A stretch of 16,487 nucleotides of DNA from a virus, in IMG/VR virus record IMGVR_UViG_3300045988_086395; one strand, written 5' to 3'. A program made the position numbers and the translations under genes. Positions 1 to 16,487 of the stretch are shown piece by piece. Every line of letters begins with the position of its first letter. The first letter of the stretch is position 1. The notes beneath the pieces are model-generated. The model was not told where the DNA came from, made no database searches, and saw only the letters and a list, made by a program, of their open reading frames with translations.

Positions 1-39
1 AAGCCTTCGTCGGCAGCGTCAGATGTGTATAAGAGACAG
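1..39. other. Illumina Nextera adapter remnant: last 6 nt of an i5 index (..AAGCCT), then TCGTCGGCAGCGTC and the Tn5 mosaic end AGATGTGTATAAGAGACAG. Not biological.
   Basis: Exact match to the Nextera read-1 adapter / mosaic-end sequence. Its reverse complement sits at 16449-16487. Confidence 0.9.
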
Positions 40-324
40 CACCGAACAAATGTTCGCTTCCCATTCCTATTCTTTTCATGTTTTTCACTTGACAACAACA
101 CCAACATATGCATAACAAAATAAATCCTTGACAGAATGAACAAGCTATGCTAGCACGTCGAAAAGTATACACTGTACACATGCAATCTAGTCAACAATTG
201 ACTGGCCGTTGCTAAGTGTACACTGTATACTACTGCACCACTCATCCATAGAAAACGTGAATGAGACAACGCACGTATAACGTGCTATAATGGTCTTGTC
301 GTTGAGGAGAAGGAGTGGAAGATG
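40..324. repeat. Left inverted terminal repeat (285 bp). It is the exact reverse complement of 16164-16448 and runs through the ATG of the first gene.
   Basis: A stepwise reverse-complement comparison of both ends checked several long blocks and all were identical. The match ends at ...GGAGTGGAAGATG, after which the two ends diverge (ATGAAAAG vs ATGGCAAT). Confidence 0.85.
263..291 (+). promoter_or_regulatory. Sigma-A-type promoter inside the left ITR. Elements: -35 GAGACA (263-268), 17-bp spacer, extended -10 TGcTATAAT (283-291). The spacer is occupied by the palindrome GCACG-TATAA-CGTGC (271-285), which looks like an operator.
   Basis: Read directly from the sequence. Spacing and the TG-extended -10 are canonical. 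The RBS AAGGAG (311-316) and ATG (322) follow. Confidence 0.6.
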
Positions 325-1616: not shown

Positions 1617-1696
1617 CAGACAATGGTTGGATGTTTGCGCTGCTGCTGATATTGGTTTTGTCAGCAGCAGTTTTCATTGATTTTATTCGCAAATAA
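1613..1696 (+). CDS. Possible hydrophobic mini-ORF (27 aa, MTDNGWMFALLLILVLSAAVFIDFIRK). This is very tentative, because it contains the terminator hairpin.
   Basis: Start overlaps the upstream stop as ATGA and it has a single hydrophobic stretch. The coding sequence coincides with a stem-loop. Confidence 0.25.
   Translation: MTDNGWMFALLLILVLSAAVFIDFIRK
1640..1684 (+). terminator. Rho-independent terminator for the plus-strand early operon. It lies at the convergence point with the minus-strand genes.
   Basis: A 10-bp perfect stem CTGCTGCTGA / TCAGCAGCAG with an 11-nt loop, followed by TTTTCATTGATTTT. Confidence 0.5.
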
Positions 1697-2716
1697 TTAC
1701 TGCAAGTTGAGAACATTGCTCATTTCATAGAACAACTCTCTACATTTCGCACTTGAAAAATAGACGTTGCCTAGACGATACATGTTAAGTAACGCCTTGA
1801 TTATTGGGTGCGATTTTTGTATCATCAAGAGATTTGGCGTCATGTCGTTTTTAGTCAGGCAGAATACATTGTTGGTTTGCCTAGCGTAATCCCCCACATA
1901 GTATTGCAGCATTTTTGAATCGAGATATACTGAAAATGTCTGTTCCCCGTATTGTATGGCATAGCAATAACGTGCGTCCTTAGGAATCGATGAAACAAAC
2001 GTGTCCGTATCATCCATGAATTCATTGGCAATGGCGTAATCATCATAGCCCGTAGCTTTAGCAAGGTCGCCAAACGCTGAATTCATCAGCTCATTTTCAC
2101 TTTCTGCGTTATGATATAAATGCACGCATACGCGATTGTTGGCTCGCATGATGAATTCTTTATTTTTAAGGTCATCAATTGAAATTCCAAGCTTGACGAA
2201 ATATGGATTGACAATAGAAACAGCATTGCTTGCAAAGATCATTCGCGTTGAGAATCTGCGACGGTCGACAGTATGCCAAAATCCCAAGGCTTGGTTGACT
2301 TCGTTGGTGAGATAATGCATGTTGCGCGTGTTCTCGATGATGAATTCATCGAACATGATTTTATTGCATTTCGAATAGTCTCCGCCTTTACGTGCTTGCT
2401 GGGTGGAAAGCCAGCGGAAATGCCCCATTCTCTGCCACGAGGTATTCTTCCCCACCTTTTTCGCCTGCATTGTATAACCTTTAGTTCGGAAATCATAGTT
2501 TTCATATTTTTCCGCGATATCATCAAAAAACGTGTACCTGTCTTCCAGCTCGCTTTCATAGCGGCGCAGATAGATCATTTCGTTTCCGTGTTTTTTCCAG
2601 TCGCGAATACCCCAGTCCTTAAAGCCATAGGTTTTTCCCGCGCTTCGATGCCCAGTCAAAAAATTCCAAAATGCGCCGCGCGTGAGAAGTGGATGATAGT
2701 CAACGTAAACGCTCAT
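1697..2716 (-). CDS. DNA encapsidation (packaging) ATPase, homolog of phi29 gp16.
   Basis: Walker A GHRSAGKT. Blocks NFLTGHRSAGKTYGFK, IYLRRYESEL, IMFDEFI and ASNAVSIVNPYF align to remembered phi29 gp16 motifs. The ATG at 2716 overlaps the upstream stop (ATGA). The ORF-track start at 2737 is a TTG. Confidence 0.9.
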   Translation of the reverse strand: MSVYVDYHPLLTRGAFWNFLTGHRSAGKTYGFKDWGIRDWKKHGNEMIYLRRYESELEDRYTFFDDIAEKYENYDFRTKGYTMQAKKVGKNTSWQRMGHFRWLSTQQARKGGDYSKCNKIMFDEFIIENTRNMHYLTNEVNQALGFWHTVDRRRFSTRMIFASNAVSIVNPYFVKLGISIDDLKNKEFIMRANNRVCVHLYHNAESENELMNSAFGDLAKATGYDDYAIANEFMDDTDTFVSSIPKDARYCYAIQYGEQTFSVYLDSKMLQYYVGDYARQTNNVFCLTKNDMTPNLLMIQKSHPIIKALLNMYRLGNVYFSSAKCRELFYEMSNVLNLQ

Positions 2717-3969
2717 AGATATCTTCTCACCATCCAATCGTGGGCACGCCCCGCATAAACATTCGCATCAGCTTTTATTGTCGGTCCTTGCCCTGAACCA
2801 TGGCCGCAGAACTGGTTGTTTCCTATGTACAATTCGACGTGATCAAATGATGAGTTGTAATCTCCCCAATTGAAAAATACCAGATCGGCCGGCTGCATCG
2901 AAGACAGAGGAAGATTAGGCCCTGATGCAGCCGCGATTTGTCGCCCCTTTCCCACTTGCGCACCCGTCCACGTGCCGATATCCATGCTTGTTACTTTTTG
3001 GTAGGCGAACCAAATAGTGCTTGAGCAATCGCCGTATCCACTTGCTATCGGATCAAGTCTCCCCGGGCCTTGTGAATATGCAAATTTACCAACCCATGAG
3101 GTGTACAGCTCGACGATTTGGCGCTGAGCTTCTGACCCCGAAGACGATCCACCACCAGTATTCCCACCAGTGATAGGAGTTCCGTCTTTGTTTACACCAG
3201 GTATCCATGTTTGGCCAGTAGATTTGTAAAAAATCACACCGTTTTTATAATAATCTGGTCCGAACAATATTAAGTTGTCTCCACGTTGGATCACGTAAGA
3301 CACTTGATTTGCGTCTTGTTCAATTTGCGGTGAATTGCCACCATAAGATGGGGAGCCGACTTGGCCGAAGTCCGGCGGATCGCTCTCACCATCCCAAGCA
3401 TCGAGACGTGATTTTACTGTATTGTATCGATTTTTGTAAATTCCAAGAACACCATCATTCATGCAGACTTGATATAGACGTTCCAGCGTTGCCGTGCCAC
3501 CCGCTGCTTGGATGACACGCCCGCACTGTCTAGGTGATTGGTGCCACATGGCCATCGCGAAAATCAACGGCTTGGGGTTTGATTGACTCATGCCATAGCC
3601 TTCGAGCGTTGTAATGTAACCTTCGAAGTCTGAGATCGCTTGATTTTCTTGAATGATATGGTTTTCCTGTGCGCTGAAAACCTGCACGATGGAGTTGCCT
3701 TCGGCCTGTGTAAGATAGCGCCTCGTCCAATAACTGTCTGTTGCAGGGTGCTGTGCAAGAGAATCGCGCAATGATTGCGCGAGATCAGGATAGGCGGTAG
3801 GCTGCTCTGCTTCCACTCGATTAAGCAGAGCAGCCGCACGTGTGCCATACCATTGCATCATACCAATAGTTATTGGATCGACGTAATAAACGCTTGTCCA
3901 ATTCCAATTGCTCTCGACTTCGCCGATAACGTACATGGCATAATAGCATATGGTTTGCGTGCTTGGCAT
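2713..3969 (-). CDS. Tail-associated peptidoglycan hydrolase (analog of phi29 gp13) with a C-terminal NlpC/P60-type cysteine peptidase.
   Basis: C-terminal GYGDCSSTIWFAY (catalytic Cys) and FDHVELYIGNN (His) motifs. The N-terminal domain is unassigned. ATG at 3969 with a GAGGTGA RBS. The ORF-track start at 3978 is a GTG. Confidence 0.8.
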   Translation of the reverse strand: MPSTQTICYYAMYVIGEVESNWNWTSVYYVDPITIGMMQWYGTRAAALLNRVEAEQPTAYPDLAQSLRDSLAQHPATDSYWTRRYLTQAEGNSIVQVFSAQENHIIQENQAISDFEGYITTLEGYGMSQSNPKPLIFAMAMWHQSPRQCGRVIQAAGGTATLERLYQVCMNDGVLGIYKNRYNTVKSRLDAWDGESDPPDFGQVGSPSYGGNSPQIEQDANQVSYVIQRGDNLILFGPDYYKNGVIFYKSTGQTWIPGVNKDGTPITGGNTGGGSSSGSEAQRQIVELYTSWVGKFAYSQGPGRLDPIASGYGDCSSTIWFAYQKVTSMDIGTWTGAQVGKGRQIAAASGPNLPLSSMQPADLVFFNWGDYNSSFDHVELYIGNNQFCGHGSGQGPTIKADANVYAGRAHDWMVRRYL

Positions 3970-3987
3970 AGAATTCACCTCGTAAGA

Positions 3988-4085
3988 TAGCGAGTGTAGG
4001 ATTCGAACCTACGTGGTCCAGGTCGCCACCTAAGACCGTCGATTGCGTCTATCGCCCCGTTTTGGCCTCTCCGGGCAAGCTCGCT
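3988..4085 (-). tRNA. tRNA or tRNA-like element with a canonical T-arm and a 7-bp acceptor-stem complement. The full cloverleaf could not be resolved by eye.
   Basis: The minus strand reads ...GTAGG-TTCGAAT-CCTAC (T-stem/loop consensus GGTTCGAATCC) followed by ACTCGCT(A), which is complementary to the 5' AGCGAG(C/T). At about 98 nt it is too long for a class I tRNA. It may be a class II tRNA or a tRNA-like element. Confidence 0.45.
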
Positions 4086-4096
4086 ATCATGAATAT

Positions 4097-4125
4097 ATTA
4101 TAGCATTATTTCTTTTCAATTACAA
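4097..4125 (-). promoter_or_regulatory. Promoter immediately upstream of the tRNA-like element: -35 TTGTAA, 17-bp spacer, extended -10 TGcTATAAT. This -10 is the same sequence as the ITR promoter.
   Basis: Read on the minus strand as AAGGTTGTAA-TTGAAAAGAAATAATGC-TATAAT. It lies within the 3' end of the lysin CDS. The -10 ends about 10 nt before the tRNA 5' end. Confidence 0.45.
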
Positions 4126-4768
4126 CCTTATAATCATTATTTTCTAAAATTGACTGATTAGTAGGCGCATCTACGGAAACTGCATGAGCGTATGCTTCCC
4201 ACGCGCTGCGATCTCCGAAGAAATGATTAAGGTCTAAGCTAGCATCCCACCCATTTACAGCACCTAGCTCTGAGTATTGCCAGCAGCATACGAGGCCATC
4301 GGTTTCTAGGTGATCGCCCGGGTCATCATAAAGAGTCATAACTTGCTTGGGCTTGGGATATTGCGCGATCCATCGCCCGCAATTGGGGTCCACGCCCCCC
4401 TGGTTAAATCGCCATGGATTCGCATAAATCCACGGCCACACTCTCGTTTTTTCATACACTCGGCGCACGAATTCGTTAACCCATTCAACAGATTGATCTT
4501 TTTCCCAGTCTAATATTGGAATTCCGTGATTAAAATAACCCTCGCAATTTTTGATGAACCAATCACACTCTTTTATAGGGTCGTTATTCCTGCCGAAGTG
4601 ATAGAATCCAAAAAGTTTATTAGATTTTATAGCACGCTGAATTACTCCGTCACAATATGGATTGACATAAGTAAGTCCTTCGGTTGCTTTTGAAATGACA
4701 AAATCAGCAGCAGTATCTTGGATTTGGAAATCTTTTTGCCTCGACGAAACATCAACTCCTCTAAGCAT
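4106..4768 (-). CDS. Endolysin, a GH25 muramidase (Cpl-1-like catalytic domain) with no obvious cell-wall-binding module.
   Basis: GVDVSSRQ...FVISKATEG..YVNP...FGFYHF...LDWEKD...CCWQYS follows the GH25 signature. The ATG at 4768 overlaps the holin 3' end. The ORF-track start at 4780 is a TTG. Confidence 0.85.
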   Translation of the reverse strand: MLRGVDVSSRQKDFQIQDTAADFVISKATEGLTYVNPYCDGVIQRAIKSNKLFGFYHFGRNNDPIKECDWFIKNCEGYFNHGIPILDWEKDQSVEWVNEFVRRVYEKTRVWPWIYANPWRFNQGGVDPNCGRWIAQYPKPKQVMTLYDDPGDHLETDGLVCCWQYSELGAVNGWDASLDLNHFFGDRSAWEAYAHAVSVDAPTNQSILENNDYKVVIEKK

Positions 4769-4976
4769 GTTTCCCGCCAATACTGGCCATACAGTCTTTT
4801 AGCTCGCTCGATAGCTCCTTAAAATCTTCACGCAGCTCTCCAATCTCAATAGTAATACTTTTAAGACTGGCGGTAAAATCTTTAAGGGTACGGCCATAGA
4901 GATAAAACATGCCCACGCAAGCCGCGATAGGGAAGCCCACACTACCAATAAGAGAAATAAGGGTGTTAACATCCAT
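4761..4976 (-). CDS. Putative holin (71 aa): one TM helix plus a charged C-terminal coiled region.
   Basis: Sits immediately upstream of and overlapping the endolysin. A GAGTGAGGT RBS precedes the ATG at 4976. Hydrophobic core LISLIGSVGFPIAACVGMFYLYG. The longer ORF-track version overlaps the fibre gene by 50 nt. Confidence 0.5.
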   Translation of the reverse strand: MDVNTLISLIGSVGFPIAACVGMFYLYGRTLKDFTASLKSITIEIGELREDFKELSSELKDCMASIGGKHA

Positions 4977-4983
4977 GATTACC

Positions 4984-6108
4984 TCACTCAGGATAAACAG
5001 GGTCGGGGACACAATCAACAGGGAAATTAGCAAGTGCCATGATGGCAGGATCTACAGGATCAGGAGGAATCGGCGCATTAAGATTAACGAGCGATAGTGG
5101 GGTCTGGATTGACATGATATTAATTCTACCGTAGTCGCTTTTCCATGGGCCCGCTCCACCAGCAATATTTATTCCAATGTACAAATAACCATCGGTTCCA
5201 ATTCCATTTGCTATAATATTCTGCCACGTTTGATTACTAGCAGCGTTCGCATTCTGAGCGATACCAACTCCATTGAATATCATAGCTTCGGACGGAGTAA
5301 TAGGCATCTTTATTAATGTTTTGATTGCATAATAGTTGGTGCCAGGCATGATAGAGAGAGTAGGCTGAGTTGCTTTTGCATCAAATTGGATCAATGAATC
5401 AAACTTCCATAGCGTATTGCCATGCAAATACAGTCTGGCGTTTGCTGCAACAAGTGAAGCTCCGTTGCTCAACAATTCCCCTTTGTTATATAATTTAACA
5501 GACCAATTTTCCACGAGGCTGGTATATCCAATTCGATTCGATACATCAGTAAGCTGCGCTTGTGCATTAGAGCTAAGTCCCGCCGTCATATTAAGATCTT
5601 TAGCAGACGCATTGACGCCAAGATTCACAAGATTAACACCAAGCGACGTGCGAGCAGCGGCTGCTGACGTAGCGCCAGTTCCGCCATTGGCAACTGACAC
5701 CGGGAACTTGCTATTCAGCTTCTTAATATCATTAGTATTAGTAGTAATATTTCCCTGCGCGGTTGTAAGATCGTTGCGAAGCTGAGCGATATTTTCAGTG
5801 CTCGTCGCAATGTTACCCTGTGCGGTAGTGAGATCAGTACGAAGACCACTAGTTGCAGTTTGCAGCTTGCTGATGTTGTTAGAATTGGTAGCCACGCCTC
5901 CCTGCGTCGTGGTAAGATCGTTGCGCAGAGCGGTCACGTTAGAGTTGATCGTGGAAATATTGTTGTTGACAGCTACAATCTTATCAGATTGATCTTTAAG
6001 TTCAGTATCAACTTTTCCCATCGCAGCGTTGTACTGATCTGCGAGATCGGGCTTGTCATTTTCTGCGTACAAATCAAGATCATAATTCGGAGTGTAAATA
6101 GATGCCAT
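4984..6108 (-). CDS. Tail fibre / receptor-binding appendage protein (374 aa).
   Basis: ATG at 6108 with a GGAGG RBS at 9-nt spacing, one base after the upstream stop. Contains tandem 21-28-aa repeats (LRNDLTTAQGNI..T.T.NI..L) and a GGTGATSAAAARTSLG motif typical of phage fibres. The ORF-track N-terminal extension overlaps the upstream gene by 113 nt and is rejected. Confidence 0.65.
   Translation of the reverse strand: MASIYTPNYDLDLYAENDKPDLADQYNAAMGKVDTELKDQSDKIVAVNNNISTINSNVTALRNDLTTTQGGVATNSNNISKLQTATSGLRTDLTTAQGNIATSTENIAQLRNDLTTAQGNITTNTNDIKKLNSKFPVSVANGGTGATSAAAARTSLGVNLVNLGVNASAKDLNMTAGLSSNAQAQLTDVSNRIGYTSLVENWSVKLYNKGELLSNGASLVAANARLYLHGNTLWKFDSLIQFDAKATQPTLSIMPGTNYYAIKTLIKMPITPSEAMIFNGVGIAQNANAASNQTWQNIIANGIGTDGYLYIGINIAGGAGPWKSDYGRINIMSIQTPLSLVNLNAPIPPDPVDPAIMALANFPVDCVPDPVYPE
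5715..5930. repeat. Intragenic imperfect tandem repeats (units of about 63 and 84 nt) in the shaft of the tail fibre gene.
   Basis: DNA blocks ...CCCTGCGCGGTTGTAAGATCGTTGCGAAGCTG / CCCTGTGCGGTAGTGAGATCAGTACGAAGAC / CCCTGCGTCGTGGTAAGATCGTTGCGCAGAGC recur. They correspond to the peptide repeats LR(N/T)DLTT(A/T)QG. Confidence 0.5.
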
Positions 6109-6109
6109 G

Positions 6110-6670
6110 TTAGTTTCCCTCCTGGTAGTAGATTCCATCAGGCTTCCACGTTTCGCCCATAAGCGATCCGCTGTAGACCGCAACACCTCGCACGTTAAGC
6201 CCGCTGTTCGCGAGCGTTTCAACTGTCAATTCACTGTCTCCAAGAGTGCGAACTGTTGCAGCTTGCAATGACAGCCAACGATAGAGATTGCGCATTGCTT
6301 CTTTGCCATTGTTGTACTTGCCAATTGTCACGTCCCAGATCAGCATGCCGATTTGCAGCTTTTCAATTTCTGCCATGAGTTCGTTCTTAACGTTCTCATC
6401 GCCGACATCTGCATAATCTTGCAGCATTTTCGTTTGCTGGTTCTGCTGATTTTCAAGCTCGATTAAAAATGCGTTAAAATCATCAATCGTCATGCAACCG
6501 GCAAGCTCGCCTGCAAACGAATCTATGGCATCGCAGATCGCCTTGATTCGTTCTTCCTCGCTGATTACATTATAATATATCTTGGGGATGTATGGTGCGC
6601 TTCTCAAAAAAACACGAGGATAACAAAACCCTGTCCACCCCGTGACGCCACACGGATACGTAACTCCCAT
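6110..6670 (-). CDS. Hypothetical tail/structural protein (186 aa).
   Basis: The ATG at 6670 has an AGGAGG RBS. The ORF-track start at 6706 overlaps the upstream gene and lacks an RBS. It sits inside the tail gene block. Confidence 0.5.
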   Translation of the reverse strand: MGVTYPCGVTGWTGFCYPRVFLRSAPYIPKIYYNVISEEERIKAICDAIDSFAGELAGCMTIDDFNAFLIELENQQNQQTKMLQDYADVGDENVKNELMAEIEKLQIGMLIWDVTIGKYNNGKEAMRNLYRWLSLQAATVRTLGDSELTVETLANSGLNVRGVAVYSGSLMGETWKPDGIYYQEGN

Positions 6671-10448: not shown

Positions 10449-10485
10449 CAAAAAGCCCCCATGCGCTGCGCAAACGCATGGGGGC
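10449..10485 (-). terminator. Rho-independent terminator between the capsid and tail genes.
   Basis: An 11-bp stem GCCCCCATGCG / CGCATGGGGGC with a 9-nt loop. On the minus strand it is followed by TTTTTG, then the tail gene RBS. Confidence 0.65.
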
Positions 10486-10525: not shown

Positions 10526-11923
10526 CTACTCAGTAGTCGGAACGTACTTGGCGCCAATGCCAACTACCATAGATGCGGTCTTCGGAGTCTGACCGCTGAT
10601 CGGTTTATCAGGATCGATATACGACAGCGTAGCCTGGACGGTAACATTGGTCGCCGTCTCATCAGGGTCAACATGCAGCACACCATCATTGGTAACATAC
10701 GTGTGAGGTGCGAGCGCCTTGTCGGACGCCGTAATCGTGAGATATGCACCATCGGGCACATGCACATCGGGGTCTACGGGATCGACGGTGCCGTTAGCCG
10801 TAACTTTGAGCTGCGTATCTTCACCGACAGGCGCGAACTCAGGAGTCGTGCCGTCCTCTTTTTCAGCAAATGCAATCGTCGCACTAGCAACATTGACGGT
10901 AACAGTCGTCAAGCCAGTACCCTCCTCAAGCGTAAACAACACCGCATTGAGCATCGGCGACATGGACATGATCCCCTGGTGATGCAACCAATGGTTGGTG
11001 GTCAGCGTCGACGGGTTGTAAAAACTCGTATTTTCAAAAACGGAATCAGCGCAAATAAACCAATCACGATCAACAAGCGCTGCCTGCGCACCGTTAACCG
11101 GGAACTCATCAACGATGACTTGGCGAGTCTGCATTTCGGCGGGCTCCAAATGGAAAAGCGGGGCCAGACCCTCAACGTCGATCGCAGCCTCAACATCAGG
11201 CGTCATGATAAGCAGCATGTCCTCAGGCCGCGAGAATACCGGCAACCCGTATGCATTGTAATAGGGGCGCTGGAAACTGAGACGACGAGTGTATGCGCGT
11301 AGCAAGCGCAGAACTTTACGAGCATTGGTAGTAATATCAGTATCAACGGACAAATCAGGCGTTTGAACTTTGTAAAAGCCCCATTTCTGCTCGTACGTCG
11401 CGAACAGATTGACCATGGTATCATACTCAGCTTGCGAGTTGGAGTTATACGGAATATCCATGATCGAATTTACGAAATCGTTAAGTCCGTACTCACTCAG
11501 AAATGCACGGCGAAGCTCGACTTCATTGACCGTGATCGGAAATTTCCACTCGAAATTTCGATGGTGAAACGCGCTCTTGAATTCAGGCGGGTTACAATCA
11601 AGAAGATCAATTGCGCACGGATCATACGTTTTCGGCTTGATCAGATTCGCGCCGACTTCTTCAATCGTATTGCCATACATCAACATGCCACGCTTCAGCG
11701 GCGCAAGCGGATTTTCCCAACGACGCGAACGAATGACGACTTCACCAATTCGATTCACAAGTGCATCAACAAATTCATTCCAAAACGGGCGCGAATTCGG
11801 ATTTTGAAAAAATTCAACAGTCTGGCTAATGTTACCCTGCGTCACGCGCGGCACGTTCTGCTGGTAATTAGTAGAGCCATTCAACCAGATTTTATTAAGT
11901 ATAGTAGCATTATTCTCTGCCAT
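10526..11923 (-). CDS. Major capsid protein (phi29 gp8-like) with a C-terminal Ig-like (BIG2-type) domain.
   Basis: NEFVDALVNRIGEVVIRSRRWENPL...GNTIEEV and ALVDRDWFICAD align to remembered gp8 blocks. The C-terminal beta-rich TVTVNVASATIAF...KVTANGTVDPV segment resembles the gp8 Ig-like domain. GAAGGA RBS. Confidence 0.9.
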   Translation of the reverse strand: MAENNATILNKIWLNGSTNYQQNVPRVTQGNISQTVEFFQNPNSRPFWNEFVDALVNRIGEVVIRSRRWENPLAPLKRGMLMYGNTIEEVGANLIKPKTYDPCAIDLLDCNPPEFKSAFHHRNFEWKFPITVNEVELRRAFLSEYGLNDFVNSIMDIPYNSNSQAEYDTMVNLFATYEQKWGFYKVQTPDLSVDTDITTNARKVLRLLRAYTRRLSFQRPYYNAYGLPVFSRPEDMLLIMTPDVEAAIDVEGLAPLFHLEPAEMQTRQVIVDEFPVNGAQAALVDRDWFICADSVFENTSFYNPSTLTTNHWLHHQGIMSMSPMLNAVLFTLEEGTGLTTVTVNVASATIAFAEKEDGTTPEFAPVGEDTQLKVTANGTVDPVDPDVHVPDGAYLTITASDKALAPHTYVTNDGVLHVDPDETATNVTVQATLSYIDPDKPISGQTPKTASMVVGIGAKYVPTTE

Positions 11924-14957: not shown

Positions 14958-14987
14958 ACAAAAAAGAAGGGGGATTTCTCCCCCTTC
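14958..14987 (-). terminator. Rho-independent terminator between the SSB and TP genes. It probably separates or attenuates the early operon.
   Basis: A 9-bp stem GAAGGGGGA / TCCCCCTTC with a 4-nt loop, followed on the minus strand by TTTTTT, then the TP RBS. Confidence 0.65.
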
Positions 14988-15001: not shown

Positions 15002-15454
15002 TTATGCGAGCGCAATACTCAGATACTTGTTCCCACCGCGCGACTTCTCAACTACCGGCTTGATAGCCAACGGCTCCTCCCATTCCGACGGCTGGCCAAA
15101 GATCGCGAACAACTGCTTGACCGCACTATACACAGCCTCAGACGACGTAGACCACGCACGCCCATCAGCCCCGACAAAAATAACGCGCACCTTATCCAAC
15201 TCAACATCCGAATCGTTCATGTCAGTGATACTGGTGGCATGTGCAACCACGTTAACGCAATCAATAACAAGATCAGGGTTATTATCCAACTCATCCCATA
15301 TACTAACAGCAGAGCTGATCGAATTAAAGAGAGAAACCTTGTCTTTTTTATCCTTAATCGCAACTCCCGTATAAACTCCCGCGCCCTTCTGAGCAAGTTC
15401 GTTAGCAGGGTTTTCTTCAATATAATCTGCCTTCGCAATCATATTCTCAGCCAT
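15002..15454 (-). CDS. Single-stranded DNA-binding protein (phi29 p5-like).
   Basis: N-terminal MAENMIAKADYIEE and C-terminal RVIFVGADGRAWSTSSEAVYSAV...KSRGGNKYLSIALA parallel phi29 p5 (MENTNIVKATFDTE ... TTIFAADGSLYSAISKTV...GTSSKGNVFFSLQLSL). AAAGGTGA RBS. Confidence 0.6.
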   Translation of the reverse strand: MAENMIAKADYIEENPANELAQKGAGVYTGVAIKDKKDKVSLFNSISSAVSIWDELDNNPDLVIDCVNVVAHATSITDMNDSDVELDKVRVIFVGADGRAWSTSSEAVYSAVKQLFAIFGQPSEWEEPLAIKPVVEKSRGGNKYLSIALA

Positions 15455-15965: not shown

Positions 15966-16166
15966 TTAAGTCTCTATAACTGTATAATATCCTTCTTTAT
16001 CCAATTCTATAATTTTCTTAACCAACATAGATATATCGAAAAAAGAAAACTTTCTAATGCCCGAAATACCAACAAACTTGTCCATTGCATTTATATTGCG
16101 ATCAAGTTCGTTAAACAACCTAGCAACATCATGTACTTGAGAACAATAAACAATATAAATTGCCAT
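15966..16166 (-). CDS. Hypothetical early protein (66 aa), first gene of the right-end operon. Its promoter, 5'UTR, RBS and ATG are identical to those of the gene at 322.
   Basis: ATG at the inner boundary of the right ITR. Possibly a distant paralog of the 76-aa left-end protein (shared IYIVY...V.DV......L / ..KFSFFD pattern). Confidence 0.55.
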   Translation of the reverse strand: MAIYIVYCSQVHDVARLFNELDRNINAMDKFVGISGIRKFSFFDISMLVKKIIELDKEGYYTVIET

Positions 16167-16448
16167 CTTCCACTCCTTCTCCTCAACGACAAGACCATTA
16201 TAGCACGTTATACGTGCGTTGTCTCATTCACGTTTTCTATGGATGAGTGGTGCAGTAGTATACAGTGTACACTTAGCAACGGCCAGTCAATTGTTGACTA
16301 GATTGCATGTGTACAGTGTATACTTTTCGACGTGCTAGCATAGCTTGTTCATTCTGTCAAGGATTTATTTTGTTATGCATATGTTGGTGTTGTTGTCAAG
16401 TGAAAAACATGAAAAGAATAGGAATGGGAAGCGAACATTTGTTCGGTG
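16164..16448. repeat. Right inverted terminal repeat (285 bp).
   Basis: Exact reverse complement of 40-324. Confidence 0.85.
16197..16225 (-). promoter_or_regulatory. Mirror copy of the ITR promoter (-35 GAGACA, operator palindrome, TGcTATAAT). It drives the right-end early operon inward.
   Basis: Exact reverse complement of 263-291. Confidence 0.6.
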
Positions 16449-16487
16449 CTGTCTCTTATACACATCTGACGCTGCCGACGAAGGCTT
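16449..16487. other. Nextera adapter remnant: reverse complement of the mosaic end, TCGTCGGCAGCGTC and the i5 tail. Not biological.
   Basis: CTGTCTCTTATACACATCT GACGCTGCCGACGA AGGCTT is the reverse complement of bases 1-39. Confidence 0.9.

What the first reader, a model, noticed from the sequence alone, without database searches (positions are those of the whole stretch)
3985..4130. tRNA-like element with its own extended -10 promoter, embedded between the endolysin and the tail hydrolase genes
On the minus strand there is a textbook T-arm, GTAGG-TTCGAAT-CCTAC, followed by ACTCGCT-A. This pairs with AGCGAG(C) or TAGCGAG about 90 nt upstream to form an acceptor stem. I could not fit a standard D-arm or anticodon arm, because the element is about 98 nt and the D-region GCCCGGAGAGGCCAAAACGGGGC is atypically long. 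It is therefore either a class II tRNA or a tRNA-like RNA such as a processing or RNase P/Z punctuation element. About 10 nt upstream lies a strong promoter, TTGTAA-17-TGCTATAAT, inside the 3' end of the lysin gene. Its -10 is identical to the ITR promoter -10 (TGCTATAAT). tRNAs are unusual in phi29-like phages of this size.
Basis: seen in the sequence. Interest (0 to 1): 0.55.

Follow-up and report, generated by a model that had tools for sequence, protein, structure and literature searches.

The report
Serine-tRNA look-alike that cannot decode
A small phi29-like phage carries, between its lysin gene and its tail cell-wall hydrolase gene, a promoter-driven RNA with the full scaffold of a bacterial serine tRNA but a scrambled anticodon loop, so it looks like a tRNA mimic or processing signal and not a working tRNA.

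Summary
Window 3986-4088 (minus strand) holds a 103-nt cloverleaf. It has a 9-bp closing helix containing a canonical 7-bp acceptor stem, a serine-tRNA-type D arm, a 23-nt variable arm and a perfect T arm (GUAGG-UUCGAAU-CCUAC).

An exact TTGTAA-17-TGCTATAAT promoter match lies immediately upstream. The ribosome-binding site of the NlpC/P60 hydrolase gene starts 5 nt downstream, with no terminator between.

It is not a standard tRNA. ARAGORN at default settings and Rfam at gathering thresholds find nothing. The anticodon position holds a 4-bp stem with the loop AGACGCA, which lacks U33 and a purine at 37. Replacing only those 7 bases in silico makes ARAGORN call tRNA-Ser. A model built from true tRNA-Ser genes aligns end to end (40.8 bits).

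The element occurs in only three near-identical variants on four other contigs, and in none of 95 related phage loci. One variant has four substitutions, all in the variable arm, and none of them breaks a pair.

Best reading: a tRNA-Ser-derived, non-decoding tRNA-like RNA, co-transcribed with the late genes and probably cut out by RNase P and RNase Z. This is a lineage-specific variant of a known kind. Its function is untested. A recent pseudogene is not excluded.

The parts
4120..4125 (-). -35-like hexamer TTGTAA, inside the last codons of the lysin gene
4097..4105 (-). Extended -10 TGCTATAAT, starting directly after the lysin stop codon TAA (4108-4106). The spacer from the -35 to TATAAT is 17 nt.
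   Evidence: Identical in L001 and L002.
4088..4090 (-). Predicted transcription start: A4090 is 7 nt and G4088 is 9 nt after the -10. The transcript would begin 0-2 nt before the closing helix.
   Evidence: Inference from promoter geometry. Not measured.
3986..4088 (-). The whole tRNA-like element, 103 nt, including three extra leader-trailer base pairs. The 98-nt canonical register is 4085-3988.
4079..4085 (-). Acceptor stem, 5' strand AGCGAGC (tRNA positions 1-7). Position 7 (C) faces A in a 7-66 mismatch.
4054..4076 (-). D arm GCCC-GGAGAGGCCAAAAC-GGGGC. It matches the tRNA-Ser D arm CCG-GAGAGGCCAAA-CGG with one extra base pair and one extra A. G18 and G19 are present.
4040..4054 (-). Anticodon-position hairpin CGAU-AGACGCA-AUCG: a 4-bp stem and a 7-nt loop (4050-4044) without U33 or a purine at 37. 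This is the only non-canonical module.
   Evidence: An alternative 3-bp pairing, GCG/CGC, appears in the MFE fold.
4015..4037 (-). Long variable arm GGUCU(U)AGGU-GGCG-ACCUGGACC: 9 bp, one bulge and a tetraloop. This is the only part that varies substantially between the variants.
3996..4012 (-). T arm GUAGG-UUCGAAU-CCUAC, with G53-C61 and the canonical T loop
3988..3995 (-). Acceptor stem, 3' strand ACUCGCU (3995-3989), and discriminator A (3988). No CCA is encoded; UCUUAC follows.
3967..3981 (-). Shine-Dalgarno GAGGUGA (3981-3975) and the ATG (3969-3967) of the hydrolase gene. The Shine-Dalgarno starts 5 nt after the element, and no terminator lies between.
4106..4780 (-). Upstream gene: GH25 endolysin (context)
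2713..3969 (-). Downstream gene: a 418-aa cell-wall hydrolase with an NlpC/P60 domain. It overlaps the start of the gp16-type packaging ATPase gene (1697-2737) (context).

Best explanation
The element is an RNA gene derived from a bacterial-type class II serine tRNA. It keeps the whole tRNA scaffold: acceptor stem, D arm, long variable arm, T arm and the bases that form the tRNA elbow. Its anticodon arm has been remodelled into a short hairpin that cannot read codons.

Proposed mechanism:
1. A host sigma-A-type promoter, TTGTAA-17-TGCTATAAT, starts transcription 0-2 nt before the closing helix.
2. With no terminator, the same transcript runs on into the hydrolase and packaging-ATPase genes. 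Late read-through transcripts from upstream would also carry the element.
3. Host RNase P cuts at the 5' side (before A4085). A 3' tRNA-processing endonuclease such as RNase Z cuts after the discriminator A3988.
4. This releases a roughly 98-nt tRNA-shaped RNA that can receive CCA. It also separates the lysin message from the hydrolase/ATPase message and sets the 5' end of the latter about 6 nt before its ribosome-binding site.
5. The released RNA does not take part in decoding.

Shown here: the sequence anatomy, the tRNA-Ser relationship, the non-canonical loop, the gene context and the restricted distribution.

Inferred, not shown: promoter activity, cleavage by RNase P and RNase Z, CCA addition, and any benefit to the phage.
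For: - The anatomy is read directly from the sequence and reproduced by the MFE and consensus folds.
- The D loop GGAGAGGCCAAA combined with the T loop occurs only in tRNA-Ser genes in the reference genomes, 6 of 6 hits.
- A covariance model built from six genuine tRNA-Ser genes aligns end to end at 4085-3988: 40.8 bits, E = 5e-8. The next best hit in the window scores 9 bits.
- Exchanging only the loop AGACGCA for CUCGAAA makes ARAGORN at default settings call tRNA-Ser(cga). Repairing the stem length or the 7-66 mismatch does not. So every module except the anticodon loop is tRNA-grade.
- All 31 modelled pairs are intact in the window.
- Against contig L045, the only differences across window 3400-4159 are four substitutions, at 4032, 4031, 4020 and 4019. 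All lie in the variable arm. A-U becomes U-A, U.G becomes U-A, and one change falls in the bulge. Real class II tRNA families vary in this arm in the same way.
- The promoter is the only exact extended -10 match in the window and is identical in the variants.
- The scan lists no terminator-like site between the element and the next gene. The Shine-Dalgarno and ATG follow directly.
- Co-transcription of tRNAs with mRNAs, and RNase P processing of such transcripts, is established bacterial biology. RNase P processing of polycistronic tRNA transcripts in E. coli is described in the abstract of PMC2190699.
Against: - No expression or cleavage data exist.
- Only three distinct variants are known, about 96-98% identical genome-wide. 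There is one compensatory pair, and the shuffle control is not significant: 173 of 500 shuffles reach the observed value.
- The third variant has a C.U mismatch in the variable arm.
- The flanking genes are a recombination mosaic. Divergence at 4-fold degenerate sites is 0.015-0.057 in the hydrolase and 0.146-0.19 in the lysin. The element's 2-3% divergence therefore does not prove purifying selection.
- The three extra leader-trailer base pairs could hinder RNase P. The 7-66 C.A mismatch and the 3-nt connector are atypical.
- All 95 related loci examined lack the element, so these phages do not need it as a group.
- The tRNA-Ser model was built from genes that were selected for sharing 23 bases with the element, which inflates its score.
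Confidence: 0.45

Rival explanations
1. It is a recently disabled tRNA-Ser pseudogene. A tRNA gene picked up with its promoter lost its anticodon arm in one event. The RNA itself does nothing. The region persists because it supplies the promoter and 5' leader for the hydrolase/ATPase genes, or simply because too little time has passed for it to decay.
For: - The element fails every default tRNA detector.
- It exists only in one shallow lineage and is absent from all related loci.
- Its divergence matches neutral 4-fold sites of the adjacent hydrolase gene.
- One variant carries a pair-breaking change.
Against: - Only the decoding loop is non-canonical. All other modules, 31 of 31 pairs, the T loop and the D loop are intact.
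- The four substitutions in L001 leave every pair intact; they include one compensatory exchange (A-U to U-A) and one U.G to U-A change.
- A 16.5-kb genome with almost no non-coding DNA is a poor place for 100 nt of junk.
Confidence: 0.25
2. It is an uncleaved cis-acting 5' leader. The tRNA-shaped fold stays on the hydrolase/ATPase mRNA. There it works as a 5'-terminal structure that protects the message from 5'-end-dependent decay (RNase J or RNase E type) or tunes translation of the adjacent start site.
For: - The predicted start lies 0-2 nt before a 9-bp helix. That helix is 3 bp longer than a tRNA acceptor stem needs, which favours a closed 5' end over RNase P access.
- The Shine-Dalgarno starts 5 nt after the helix, and the scan lists no terminator-like site there.
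- CUCG (3994-3991) could alternatively pair with CGAG (3982-3979), which overlaps the Shine-Dalgarno (read directly from the sequence).
Against: - A simple hairpin would do this job. Nothing in this model explains a perfect T loop, the G18/G19 D loop or a tRNA-Ser variable arm.
- A tRNA-shaped RNA inside a bacterium is an expected substrate for RNase P.
Confidence: 0.12
3. It is a working but non-canonical tRNA that decodes. ARAGORN at a lowered threshold reads it as a 101-nt tRNA-Arg with anticodon ACG.
For: - ARAGORN with -ps80 returns tRNA-Arg(acg).
- Natural tRNAs with irregular cloverleaves exist, some of them in phages (PMC5389517).
Against: - The loop has A32, G33 and C37 where tRNAs have Y32, U33 and R37. 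The stem is 4 bp instead of 5.
- A serine-type body with an Arg anticodon would mistranslate.
- The large ORFs are uninterrupted under the standard bacterial code, so no suppressor is needed.
- Rfam gives 20.7 bits against a cut-off of 47.
Confidence: 0.04
4. It is this phage's packaging (prohead) RNA, a functional analogue of phi29 pRNA built from a tRNA.
For: - The phage has a full-length gp16-type packaging ATPase. In phi29 that ATPase docks on pRNA (PMC11476376).
- No pRNA is detected anywhere in the window.
- Outside the terminal repeats, this is the only non-coding stretch long enough for an RNA of about 100 nt.
- Two related phages carry other promoter-linked or strongly structured non-coding units just upstream of their ATPase genes.
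Against: - It does not resemble the pRNA fold, and Rfam gives no pRNA match.
- In 35 of 38 hydrolase-related loci, the hydrolase and ATPase genes abut or overlap, and no such RNA was found there.
- pRNA is documented only for the Bacillus phi29 group.
- The terminal repeat contains a more strongly folding segment (z = -5.0).
Confidence: 0.04

Closest known systems
Bacterial class II tRNA-Ser
   Same: - The D arm matches CCG-GAGAGGCCAAA-CGG.
- It has a long base-paired variable arm ending in ..CAC.
- The T arm differs by one base pair from that of a Paludibacterium tRNA-Ser.
- It has the 7/5 acceptor/T geometry, U8, A14, G18G19 and C48.
   Different: - The anticodon stem has 4 bp instead of 5.
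- The loop AGACGCA has no U33, no purine at 37 and no serine anticodon.
- The discriminator is A where tRNA-Ser has G.
- There is a 7-66 C.A mismatch, one extra connector base, one extra D-stem pair and a longer variable arm (23 nt).
- The acceptor sequence was not found in any of 185,579 reference genomes.
Phage-encoded tRNAs with altered anticodon loops, proposed to resist host anticodon nucleases (van den Berg et al. 2023, PMC10264068)
   Same: A phage carries a tRNA-scaffold RNA whose anticodon loop departs from the host type. Serine tRNAs are among the known nuclease targets.
   Different: Those tRNAs keep a functional anticodon loop and still decode. This loop is not compatible with decoding.
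tRNA genes co-transcribed with protein genes and released by RNase P (for example the E. coli tRNA-tufB operon and the phage T4 tRNA region); the mitochondrial 'tRNA punctuation' model
   Same: A tRNA-shaped unit sits between or ahead of coding regions on one transcript, so tRNA-processing enzymes define the mRNA ends. This rests on my own knowledge plus the abstract of PMC2190699.
   Different: In those cases the excised units are working tRNAs. Here the excised unit could not decode, and processing is only inferred.
[quoted passage not shown]
   Same: Both are non-decoding or atypical RNAs with tRNA-like ends. The T4 RNAs are phage-encoded and tRNA-Other is bacterial. The T4 item rests on my own knowledge. 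tRNA-Other is mentioned in PMC5389517.
   Different: No sequence relationship was tested. The T4 RNAs lie in a tRNA cluster of a large phage. Their functions are also poorly known.
allo-tRNAs and tRNA-Sec (irregular long-variable-arm tRNAs; Mukai et al., PMC5389517)
   Same: Both have a long variable arm and a serine-tRNA-like character, and some are phage-borne. That paper suggests some may act as regulatory non-coding RNAs. The best Rfam sub-threshold match here is tRNA-Sec.
   Different: Those families have a 12-13-bp acceptor branch split 8/4, 9/3 or 8/5, and a long D stem with a tetraloop. This element is 7/5 with a normal tRNA-Ser D arm.
phi29 prohead RNA (pRNA)
   Same: A small non-coding RNA with paired 5' and 3' ends in a phi29-like genome that also encodes a gp16-type ATPase.
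   Different: The fold is different, Rfam gives no match, and the genomic position is different.

Membership tests
Canonical tRNA (Rfam RF00005; ARAGORN) | Score at or above the detection threshold of standard tRNA finders | tested here: not met
   - ARAGORN at default settings: 0 genes.
- Rfam at gathering thresholds: 0 matches.
- Best match in the tRNA clan is tRNA-Sec at 20.7 bits against a cut-off of 47.
- Only ARAGORN at 80% threshold reports a 101-nt 'tRNA-Arg(acg)'.
Canonical tRNA (Rfam RF00005; ARAGORN) | 7-bp acceptor stem stacked on a 5-bp T stem, with T loop UUCRANY and G53-C61 | tested here: met
   - Acceptor: 4085-4079 pairs with 3995-3989, 6 Watson-Crick pairs plus a C.A mismatch at 7-66.
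- T arm: GUAGG-UUCGAAU-CCUAC.
Canonical tRNA (Rfam RF00005; ARAGORN) | 5-bp anticodon stem with a 7-nt loop carrying Y32, U33 and R37 | tested here: not met
   - The stem has 4 bp (CGAU/AUCG).
- The loop AGACGCA has A32, G33 and C37.
- Swapping in a canonical loop restores detection.
Canonical tRNA (Rfam RF00005; ARAGORN) | D arm with A14 and G18G19, and U8 | tested here: met
   The UU connector and the D loop GAGAGGCCAAAA align with the tRNA-Ser D loop.
Bacterial tRNA-Ser (class II) | Class II D arm and a long base-paired variable arm; overall fit to a tRNA-Ser profile | tested here: met
   - 6 of 6 genome hits to the D-loop plus T-loop pattern are tRNA-Ser genes.
- The tRNA-Ser model R2 aligns end to end: 40.8 bits, E = 5e-8.
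- Caveat: the model's sequences were selected for sharing 23 bases with the element.
Bacterial tRNA-Ser (class II) | A serine anticodon (NGA or GCU) and discriminator G73 | tested here: not met
   No serine anticodon sits in a canonical loop, and the discriminator is A3988.
Bacterial tRNA-Ser (class II) | Charging by seryl-tRNA synthetase | not testable with these tools
   This needs an aminoacylation assay.
tRNA-Sec / allo-tRNA | Acceptor/T branch split 8/5, 8/4 or 9/3; long D stem with a tetraloop; UCA anticodon for tRNA-Sec | tested here: not met
   - The 9-bp helix plus the 5-bp T stem with a bulged A gives 14 bp, not 12-13.
- No 8/4 or 9/3 register pairs.
- The D loop is 12 nt.
- There is no UCA. 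The family features are taken from PMC5389517.
tmRNA | A tRNA-like domain plus a tag reading frame, detectable by ARAGORN or Rfam | tested here: not met
   - ARAGORN in tmRNA mode finds nothing, even at a 70% threshold.
- Rfam lists no tmRNA match.
- 103 nt leaves no room for a tag ORF.
phi29-type prohead RNA (Rfam pRNA) | The pRNA fold, detectable by the Rfam model | tested here: not met
   No pRNA match in the window, even at E up to 5-10.
phi29-type prohead RNA (Rfam pRNA) | Binds proheads and is required for DNA packaging | not testable with these tools
   This needs biochemistry.
Bacterial Y RNA (YrlA) tRNA-like module | A match to the Rfam YrlA model | tested here: not met
   No YrlA match at E up to 10 in 3900-4200. 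Whether an Rsr (Ro60) partner gene is present was not tested; only 5 of the window's ORFs were scanned against Pfam.
Sigma-70/sigma-A promoter | -35 and -10 hexamers at 17 +/- 1 nt, with an optional TG extension | tested here: met
   TTGTAA-17-TATAAT with a TG extension: 10 of 12 hexamer positions, and the only exact TTG-N17-TGNTATAAT in the window. The total count of promoter-like sites in the window is no higher than in shuffles.
Sigma-70/sigma-A promoter | Initiates transcription in vivo | not testable with these tools
   This needs 5'-end mapping.

The most novel reading that the evidence does not exclude
The phage maintains a deliberate serine-tRNA mimic: a tRNA body kept intact by selection, with the anticodon loop removed from decoding. 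After processing and CCA addition, the RNA would act in trans on a host protein that recognises tRNA shape and not the anticodon. Three possibilities:

1. A decoy or competitive inhibitor for tRNA-targeting defence nucleases.
2. A sponge or non-ribosomal aminoacyl carrier for seryl-tRNA synthetase or for tRNA-dependent cell-wall enzymes. The gene sits between two cell-wall hydrolase genes.
3. Least likely, a tRNA-derived substitute for the packaging RNA of phi29.
Probability: 0.15. Interest if true: 0.7.

Novelty: new variant of a known kind. Interest (0 to 1): 0.4.

Why it matters
phi29-like phages have some of the smallest tailed-phage genomes and almost no spare DNA. A retained 100-nt RNA gene with its own promoter is therefore likely to be doing something.

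If the RNA is made and processed, it would be a clean natural case of a virus keeping a tRNA's shape while discarding its decoding function. That bears on current questions about why phages carry tRNAs and how they deal with tRNA-directed host defences.

It would also be an example of tRNA punctuation shaping the lysis and packaging messages of a phage.

The practical lesson is that standard tRNA finders miss such elements entirely, so they are probably under-counted in viral metagenomes.

If it is only a fresh pseudogene, it is a minor curiosity.

Tried and rejected
**Detectors**
- ARAGORN was run at default settings and with options for introns, tmRNA, mitochondrial tRNAs and lowered thresholds. 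Only forced, low-threshold solutions appeared. The intron-containing 'tRNA-Ser(cga)' and the opposite-strand 'tRNA-Thr/Lys' calls were rejected as artefacts.
- Rfam was run at gathering and E-value thresholds, on the region and on the whole window. Nothing was significant.

**Search for homologues**
- Hydrolase relatives (42 loci), lysin relatives (51 loci) and capsid relatives (6 loci) were collected from IMG/VR.
- Four DNA patterns were scanned in viral contigs and metagenome contigs.
- Two patterns were scanned in 185,579 reference genomes.
- BLAST was run against 50,697 phage records.
- Covariance models R1 and R2 were searched over about 0.6 Mb of related loci.
- Only four near-identical contigs carry the element. 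These are two IMG/VR contigs, each fetched under several locus ids (L001/L044/L045/L055 and L002/L043/L046/L056), and one metagenome contig (L118). All other pattern hits were ordinary tRNAs or chance.

**Readings considered and dropped**
- Reading CUUAGGU in the variable arm as an anticodon loop. The three variants would then have anticodons UAG, AUG and UCG. The flanking stem would have only 2 Watson-Crick pairs, and the L001 changes at 4020 and 4019 fit the hairpin model instead.
- The similarity of AGACGCAAUC to tRNA-Leu/Tyr D arms. It does not give a consistent fold.
- A trans target for the loop. The complement TGCGTCT occurs no more often than chance.
- A selection test from divergence at 4-fold degenerate sites. 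Mosaic recombination makes it uninformative.
- The covariation statistics are underpowered with three sequences.

**Literature**
- Searches found no prior description of a tRNA-like RNA in phi29-like phages.
Full report
**What is there**

On the minus strand of window 3986-4088 lies a 103-nt sequence that folds as a cloverleaf. Element position n corresponds to window coordinate 4089 - n.

- **Closing helix.** GAUAGCGAG (4088-4080) pairs with CUCGCUAUC (3994-3986) in nine Watson-Crick pairs.
- **Acceptor stem.** Inside that helix is a canonical 7-bp acceptor stem, AGCGAGC (4085-4079) with ACUCGCU (3995-3989). Positions 7 and 66 form a C.A mismatch. The discriminator is A3988. No CCA is encoded.
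- **D arm.** After UU comes GCCC-GGAGAGGCCAAAAC-GGGGC (4076-4054).
- **Anticodon-position hairpin.** CGAU-AGACGCA-AUCG (4054-4040).
- **Variable arm.** GGUCU(U)AGGU-GGCG-ACCUGGACC (4037-4015), 23 nt.
- **T arm.** GUAGG-UUCGAAU-CCUAC (4012-3996), a textbook T arm.

The MFE is -41.7 kcal/mol, with a modest z-score of -2.2 against shuffles.

**Surroundings**

The window is a near-complete phi29-like podovirus genome. It encodes a protein-primed type B DNA polymerase, whose closest relatives are the DNA polymerases of phi29-like phages, and a gp16-type packaging ATPase. Most of the other large ORFs were not given family assignments here. Almost all genes are on the minus strand.

The element fills the gap between a GH25 endolysin (4106-4780) and a 418-aa NlpC/P60 hydrolase (2713-3969). 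The hydrolase gene overlaps the start of the ATPase gene (1697-2737).

Directly after the lysin stop codon (TAA, 4108-4106) comes TGCTATAAT (4105-4097). TTGTAA lies 17 nt upstream of the TATAAT hexamer, at 4125-4120. This is the only exact TTG-N17-TGNTATAAT in the window. The total number of promoter-like sites in the window is no higher than in shuffles.

A start 7-9 nt after the -10 falls at 4090-4088, at the foot of the closing helix. Four bases after the helix comes GAGGUGA (3981-3975), then ATG (3969-3967). The scan lists no terminator-like site in between.

The RNA would therefore be the 5' end of a transcript that continues into the hydrolase and ATPase genes. It would also be embedded in any late read-through transcript coming from the lysin gene.

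**It is not a standard tRNA**

- ARAGORN at default settings finds no tRNA or tmRNA in the window.
- Rfam finds nothing at gathering thresholds.
- At permissive thresholds, the best match is tRNA-Sec at 20.7 bits against a cut-off of 47. The E-value is 0.084 for the 301-nt region and 4.6 for the whole window.
- Only at 80% of its normal threshold does ARAGORN draw a 101-nt class II cloverleaf, which it labels tRNA-Arg(acg).

**It is a serine-tRNA scaffold with a disabled anticodon loop**

Three results support this.

1. A scan of one genome from each of 185,579 species for the D-loop 12-mer GGAGAGGCCAAA followed by the T loop returned six hits. All six are genuine tRNA-Ser genes. The tRNA-Ser D arm CCG-GAGAGGCCAAA-CGG differs from the element's by one extra base pair and one extra A. 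The end of the variable arm (..CAC) and the T arm also align.
2. It scores 40.8 bits with E = 5e-8. The next best hit in the window scores 9 bits. The caveat is that those six genes were retrieved because they share 23 bases with the element, so the score is inflated.
3. An in-silico swap isolates the defect.
   - Replacing only the seven loop bases AGACGCA with CUCGAAA makes ARAGORN at default settings call tRNA-Ser(cga).
   - Lengthening the stem to 5 bp does not restore detection.
   - Repairing the 7-66 mismatch does not restore detection either.

The loop has A32, G33 and C37 where functional tRNAs have a pyrimidine, U and a purine. All other modules are intact, and all 31 modelled pairs are standard in the window.

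The acceptor sequence together with the T arm matched none of the 185,579 reference genomes. No donor tRNA can be named.

**Distribution and variation**

- Among 42 phage contigs with a related hydrolase, only two carry the element. Those two have 99% amino-acid identity in the hydrolase. The other 40 (66% identity or less) have a different gene directly upstream and no such RNA.
- Of the 51 contigs with related lysins, the 49 other than those same two contigs lack it, as do distant capsid relatives, Hungatella phage CH17P1 and Bifidobacterium phage BD811P2. This holds by ARAGORN, by the element's own model and by the tRNA-Ser model.
- Pattern scans of IMG/VR and of 241 million metagenome records added one further contig (L118). 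Its element is identical to the L002 variant.
- The carriers are about 96-98% identical to the window genome-wide.

Variation within the element:

- Between the window and L045, the only differences across window 3400-4159 are at 4032, 4031, 4020 and 4019, all within the variable arm. The A-U pair becomes U-A, the U.G pair becomes U-A, and one change is in the bulge.
- The second variant changes a D-loop base (C to U at 4064) and turns the same A-U pair into a C.U mismatch.

This pattern, an invariant body with a variable arm that changes while keeping its pairs, is how real class II tRNAs vary. But with three sequences it is not statistically significant: 173 of 500 shuffles reach the observed value.

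A divergence-based selection test is also uninformative because the region is a recombination mosaic. Divergence at 4-fold degenerate sites is 0.146-0.19 in the lysin and 0.015-0.057 in the hydrolase.

**Most likely mechanism**

I commit to the following, at about 45% confidence.

1. The element is a tRNA-Ser-derived, non-decoding tRNA-like RNA transcribed from its own host-type promoter.
2. Like any tRNA-shaped RNA in a bacterium, it is recognised by RNase P at the 5' side of A4085 and by a 3' tRNA endonuclease of the RNase Z type after A3988. RNase Z is the usual route for precursors without encoded CCA in Firmicutes (established knowledge, not tested here).
3. That releases a tRNA-like RNA of about 98 nt. 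At the same time it punctuates the message: the lysin mRNA is severed from the hydrolase/ATPase mRNA, which is left with a leader of about 18 nt.

Shown here: the anatomy, the tRNA-Ser homology, the defective loop and the gene context. Inferred: transcription, cleavage, CCA addition and any benefit to the phage.

The three leader-trailer pairs that extend the acceptor helix argue somewhat against efficient RNase P cleavage. They keep alive the rival that the fold stays on the mRNA as a protective 5' structure.

**Rivals**

- **Recently disabled pseudogene (about 25%).** This fits the shallow, single-lineage distribution and the failure of all detectors. It is disfavoured by the selective loss of the decoding loop alone, by substitutions that leave every pair intact, and by the compactness of the genome.
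- **Uncleaved cis-acting leader (about 12%).** See the mechanism section above.
- **Working irregular tRNA (about 4%).** The loop argues against it. So do the uninterrupted ORFs under the standard code, which leave no need for a suppressor.
- **tRNA-derived packaging RNA (about 4%).** It is suggested only by context.
  - The phage has a full gp16-type ATPase, no detectable pRNA and little other non-coding space.
  - Two related phages have other non-coding units just upstream of their ATPase genes.
  - Against it, in 35 of 38 related loci the hydrolase and ATPase genes abut or overlap and no such RNA was found there. pRNA is documented only in the Bacillus phi29 group (PMC11476376).

**Comparison with what is known, and novelty**

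- Structurally the closest known thing is bacterial tRNA-Ser. Membership fails on the anticodon loop, the discriminator and detector scores.
- It is not tRNA-Sec or an allo-tRNA. Those have 8/5, 8/4 or 9/3 branches and a long D stem with a tetraloop (PMC5389517).
- It is not tmRNA, YrlA or pRNA by Rfam or ARAGORN.
- Functionally it resembles tRNA-mRNA co-transcripts and tRNA punctuation. It also recalls non-decoding tRNA-like RNAs such as phage T4 species 1 and 2 (my own knowledge).
- Phage tRNAs with altered anticodon loops have been proposed to evade host anticodon nucleases (PMC10264068), but those still decode.
- A 2024 review states that most phi29-related phages lack tRNA genes, although some metagenomic clusters are predicted to have them (PMC11476376).
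- My literature searches found no description of a tRNA-like RNA in this phage group.

I rate it a new variant of a known kind, with moderate interest (0.4). The most novel reading still open is a deliberately maintained serine-tRNA mimic acting in trans on a host tRNA-binding protein. I give that about 15% probability, and it would deserve about 0.7 interest if true.

Noticed in passing
window 7-39 and 16449-16481: Both ends of the window carry the Nextera transposase adapter TCGTCGGCAGCGTCAGATGTGTATAAGAGACAG in inverted orientation. These ends match many unrelated phage records at 100%. The outermost bases of the 'ITR' are therefore a library artefact, not phage sequence.
   Followed up: yes
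window 1-324 and 16164-16487: A 324-nt terminal inverted repeat, 100% identical including the adapter. Each copy holds an inward-facing promoter-like site, GAGACA-17-TGCTATAAT (263-291 and 16225-16197). A segment at about 140-300 folds unusually strongly (z = -5.0) around a long imperfect palindrome, GTATACACTGTACAC...GTGTACACTGTATAC. It could be a protein-binding or origin element, or an RNA. Perfect identity could also be an assembly effect.
   Followed up: partly
window 2713-4780, compared with L045 and L046: Divergence from the sister contigs is mosaic. At 4-fold degenerate sites it is 0.146-0.19 in the lysin and 0.129 in the ATPase, but only 0.015-0.057 in the hydrolase. This implies recent recombination, with a breakpoint near the lysin/tRNA-like junction.
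   Followed up: partly
L057 and L058, about 3170-3375: In two phages whose lysin is 59% identical to the window's, the lysin gene is followed by a non-coding stretch of about 205 nt. It folds strongly (-90.7 kcal/mol, z = -3.5) and lies directly before a 336-aa ORF that was not annotated but is possibly the packaging ATPase. It has no Rfam match and no similarity to the tRNA-like element. It is a candidate structured RNA.
   Followed up: partly
L137 (Bifidobacterium phage BD811P2, OP172659.1), locus 5250-5345: Between the hydrolase homologue and the DNA packaging protein gene lies a small unit. It has the same extended -10, TGCTATAAT, about 90 nt of sequence including the hairpin terminator GGGGTGTGACG...CGTCACACCCCTTTT, and then the ATPase ribosome-binding site. 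It looks like an unannotated small RNA gene and could be a packaging-RNA candidate.
   Followed up: no
window 4761-6222, compared with L003-L037: In most hydrolase relatives, a different gene, not the lysin, lies directly upstream of the hydrolase (it was not annotated). In the window lineage, a 90-aa ORF, the lysin, the promoter and the tRNA-like element sit between the 412-aa ORF (4984-6222, not assigned to a family) and the hydrolase. This suggests they arrived together as an inserted module.
   Followed up: partly
window 10455-10485 (-), 14966-14987 (-), 1639-1671 (+): Three strong terminator-like hairpins: one after the 465-aa ORF at 10526-11923 (presumed capsid gene, not annotated here), one after the ORF at 15002-15454, and one at the convergence point of the plus-strand and minus-strand gene blocks. 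The last also gives a weak, sub-threshold Rfam 'Chlorobi-RRM' match, which is probably just the hairpin.
   Followed up: no
whole window, by protein similarity: The closest cultured relatives point to different hosts. The DNA polymerase is 46% identical to that of Hungatella phage CH17P1 (Clostridia). The hydrolase is 43% identical to those of Bifidobacterium dentium phages BD811P1-3. The host of this phage is therefore uncertain, probably a gut Gram-positive bacterium.
   Followed up: partly
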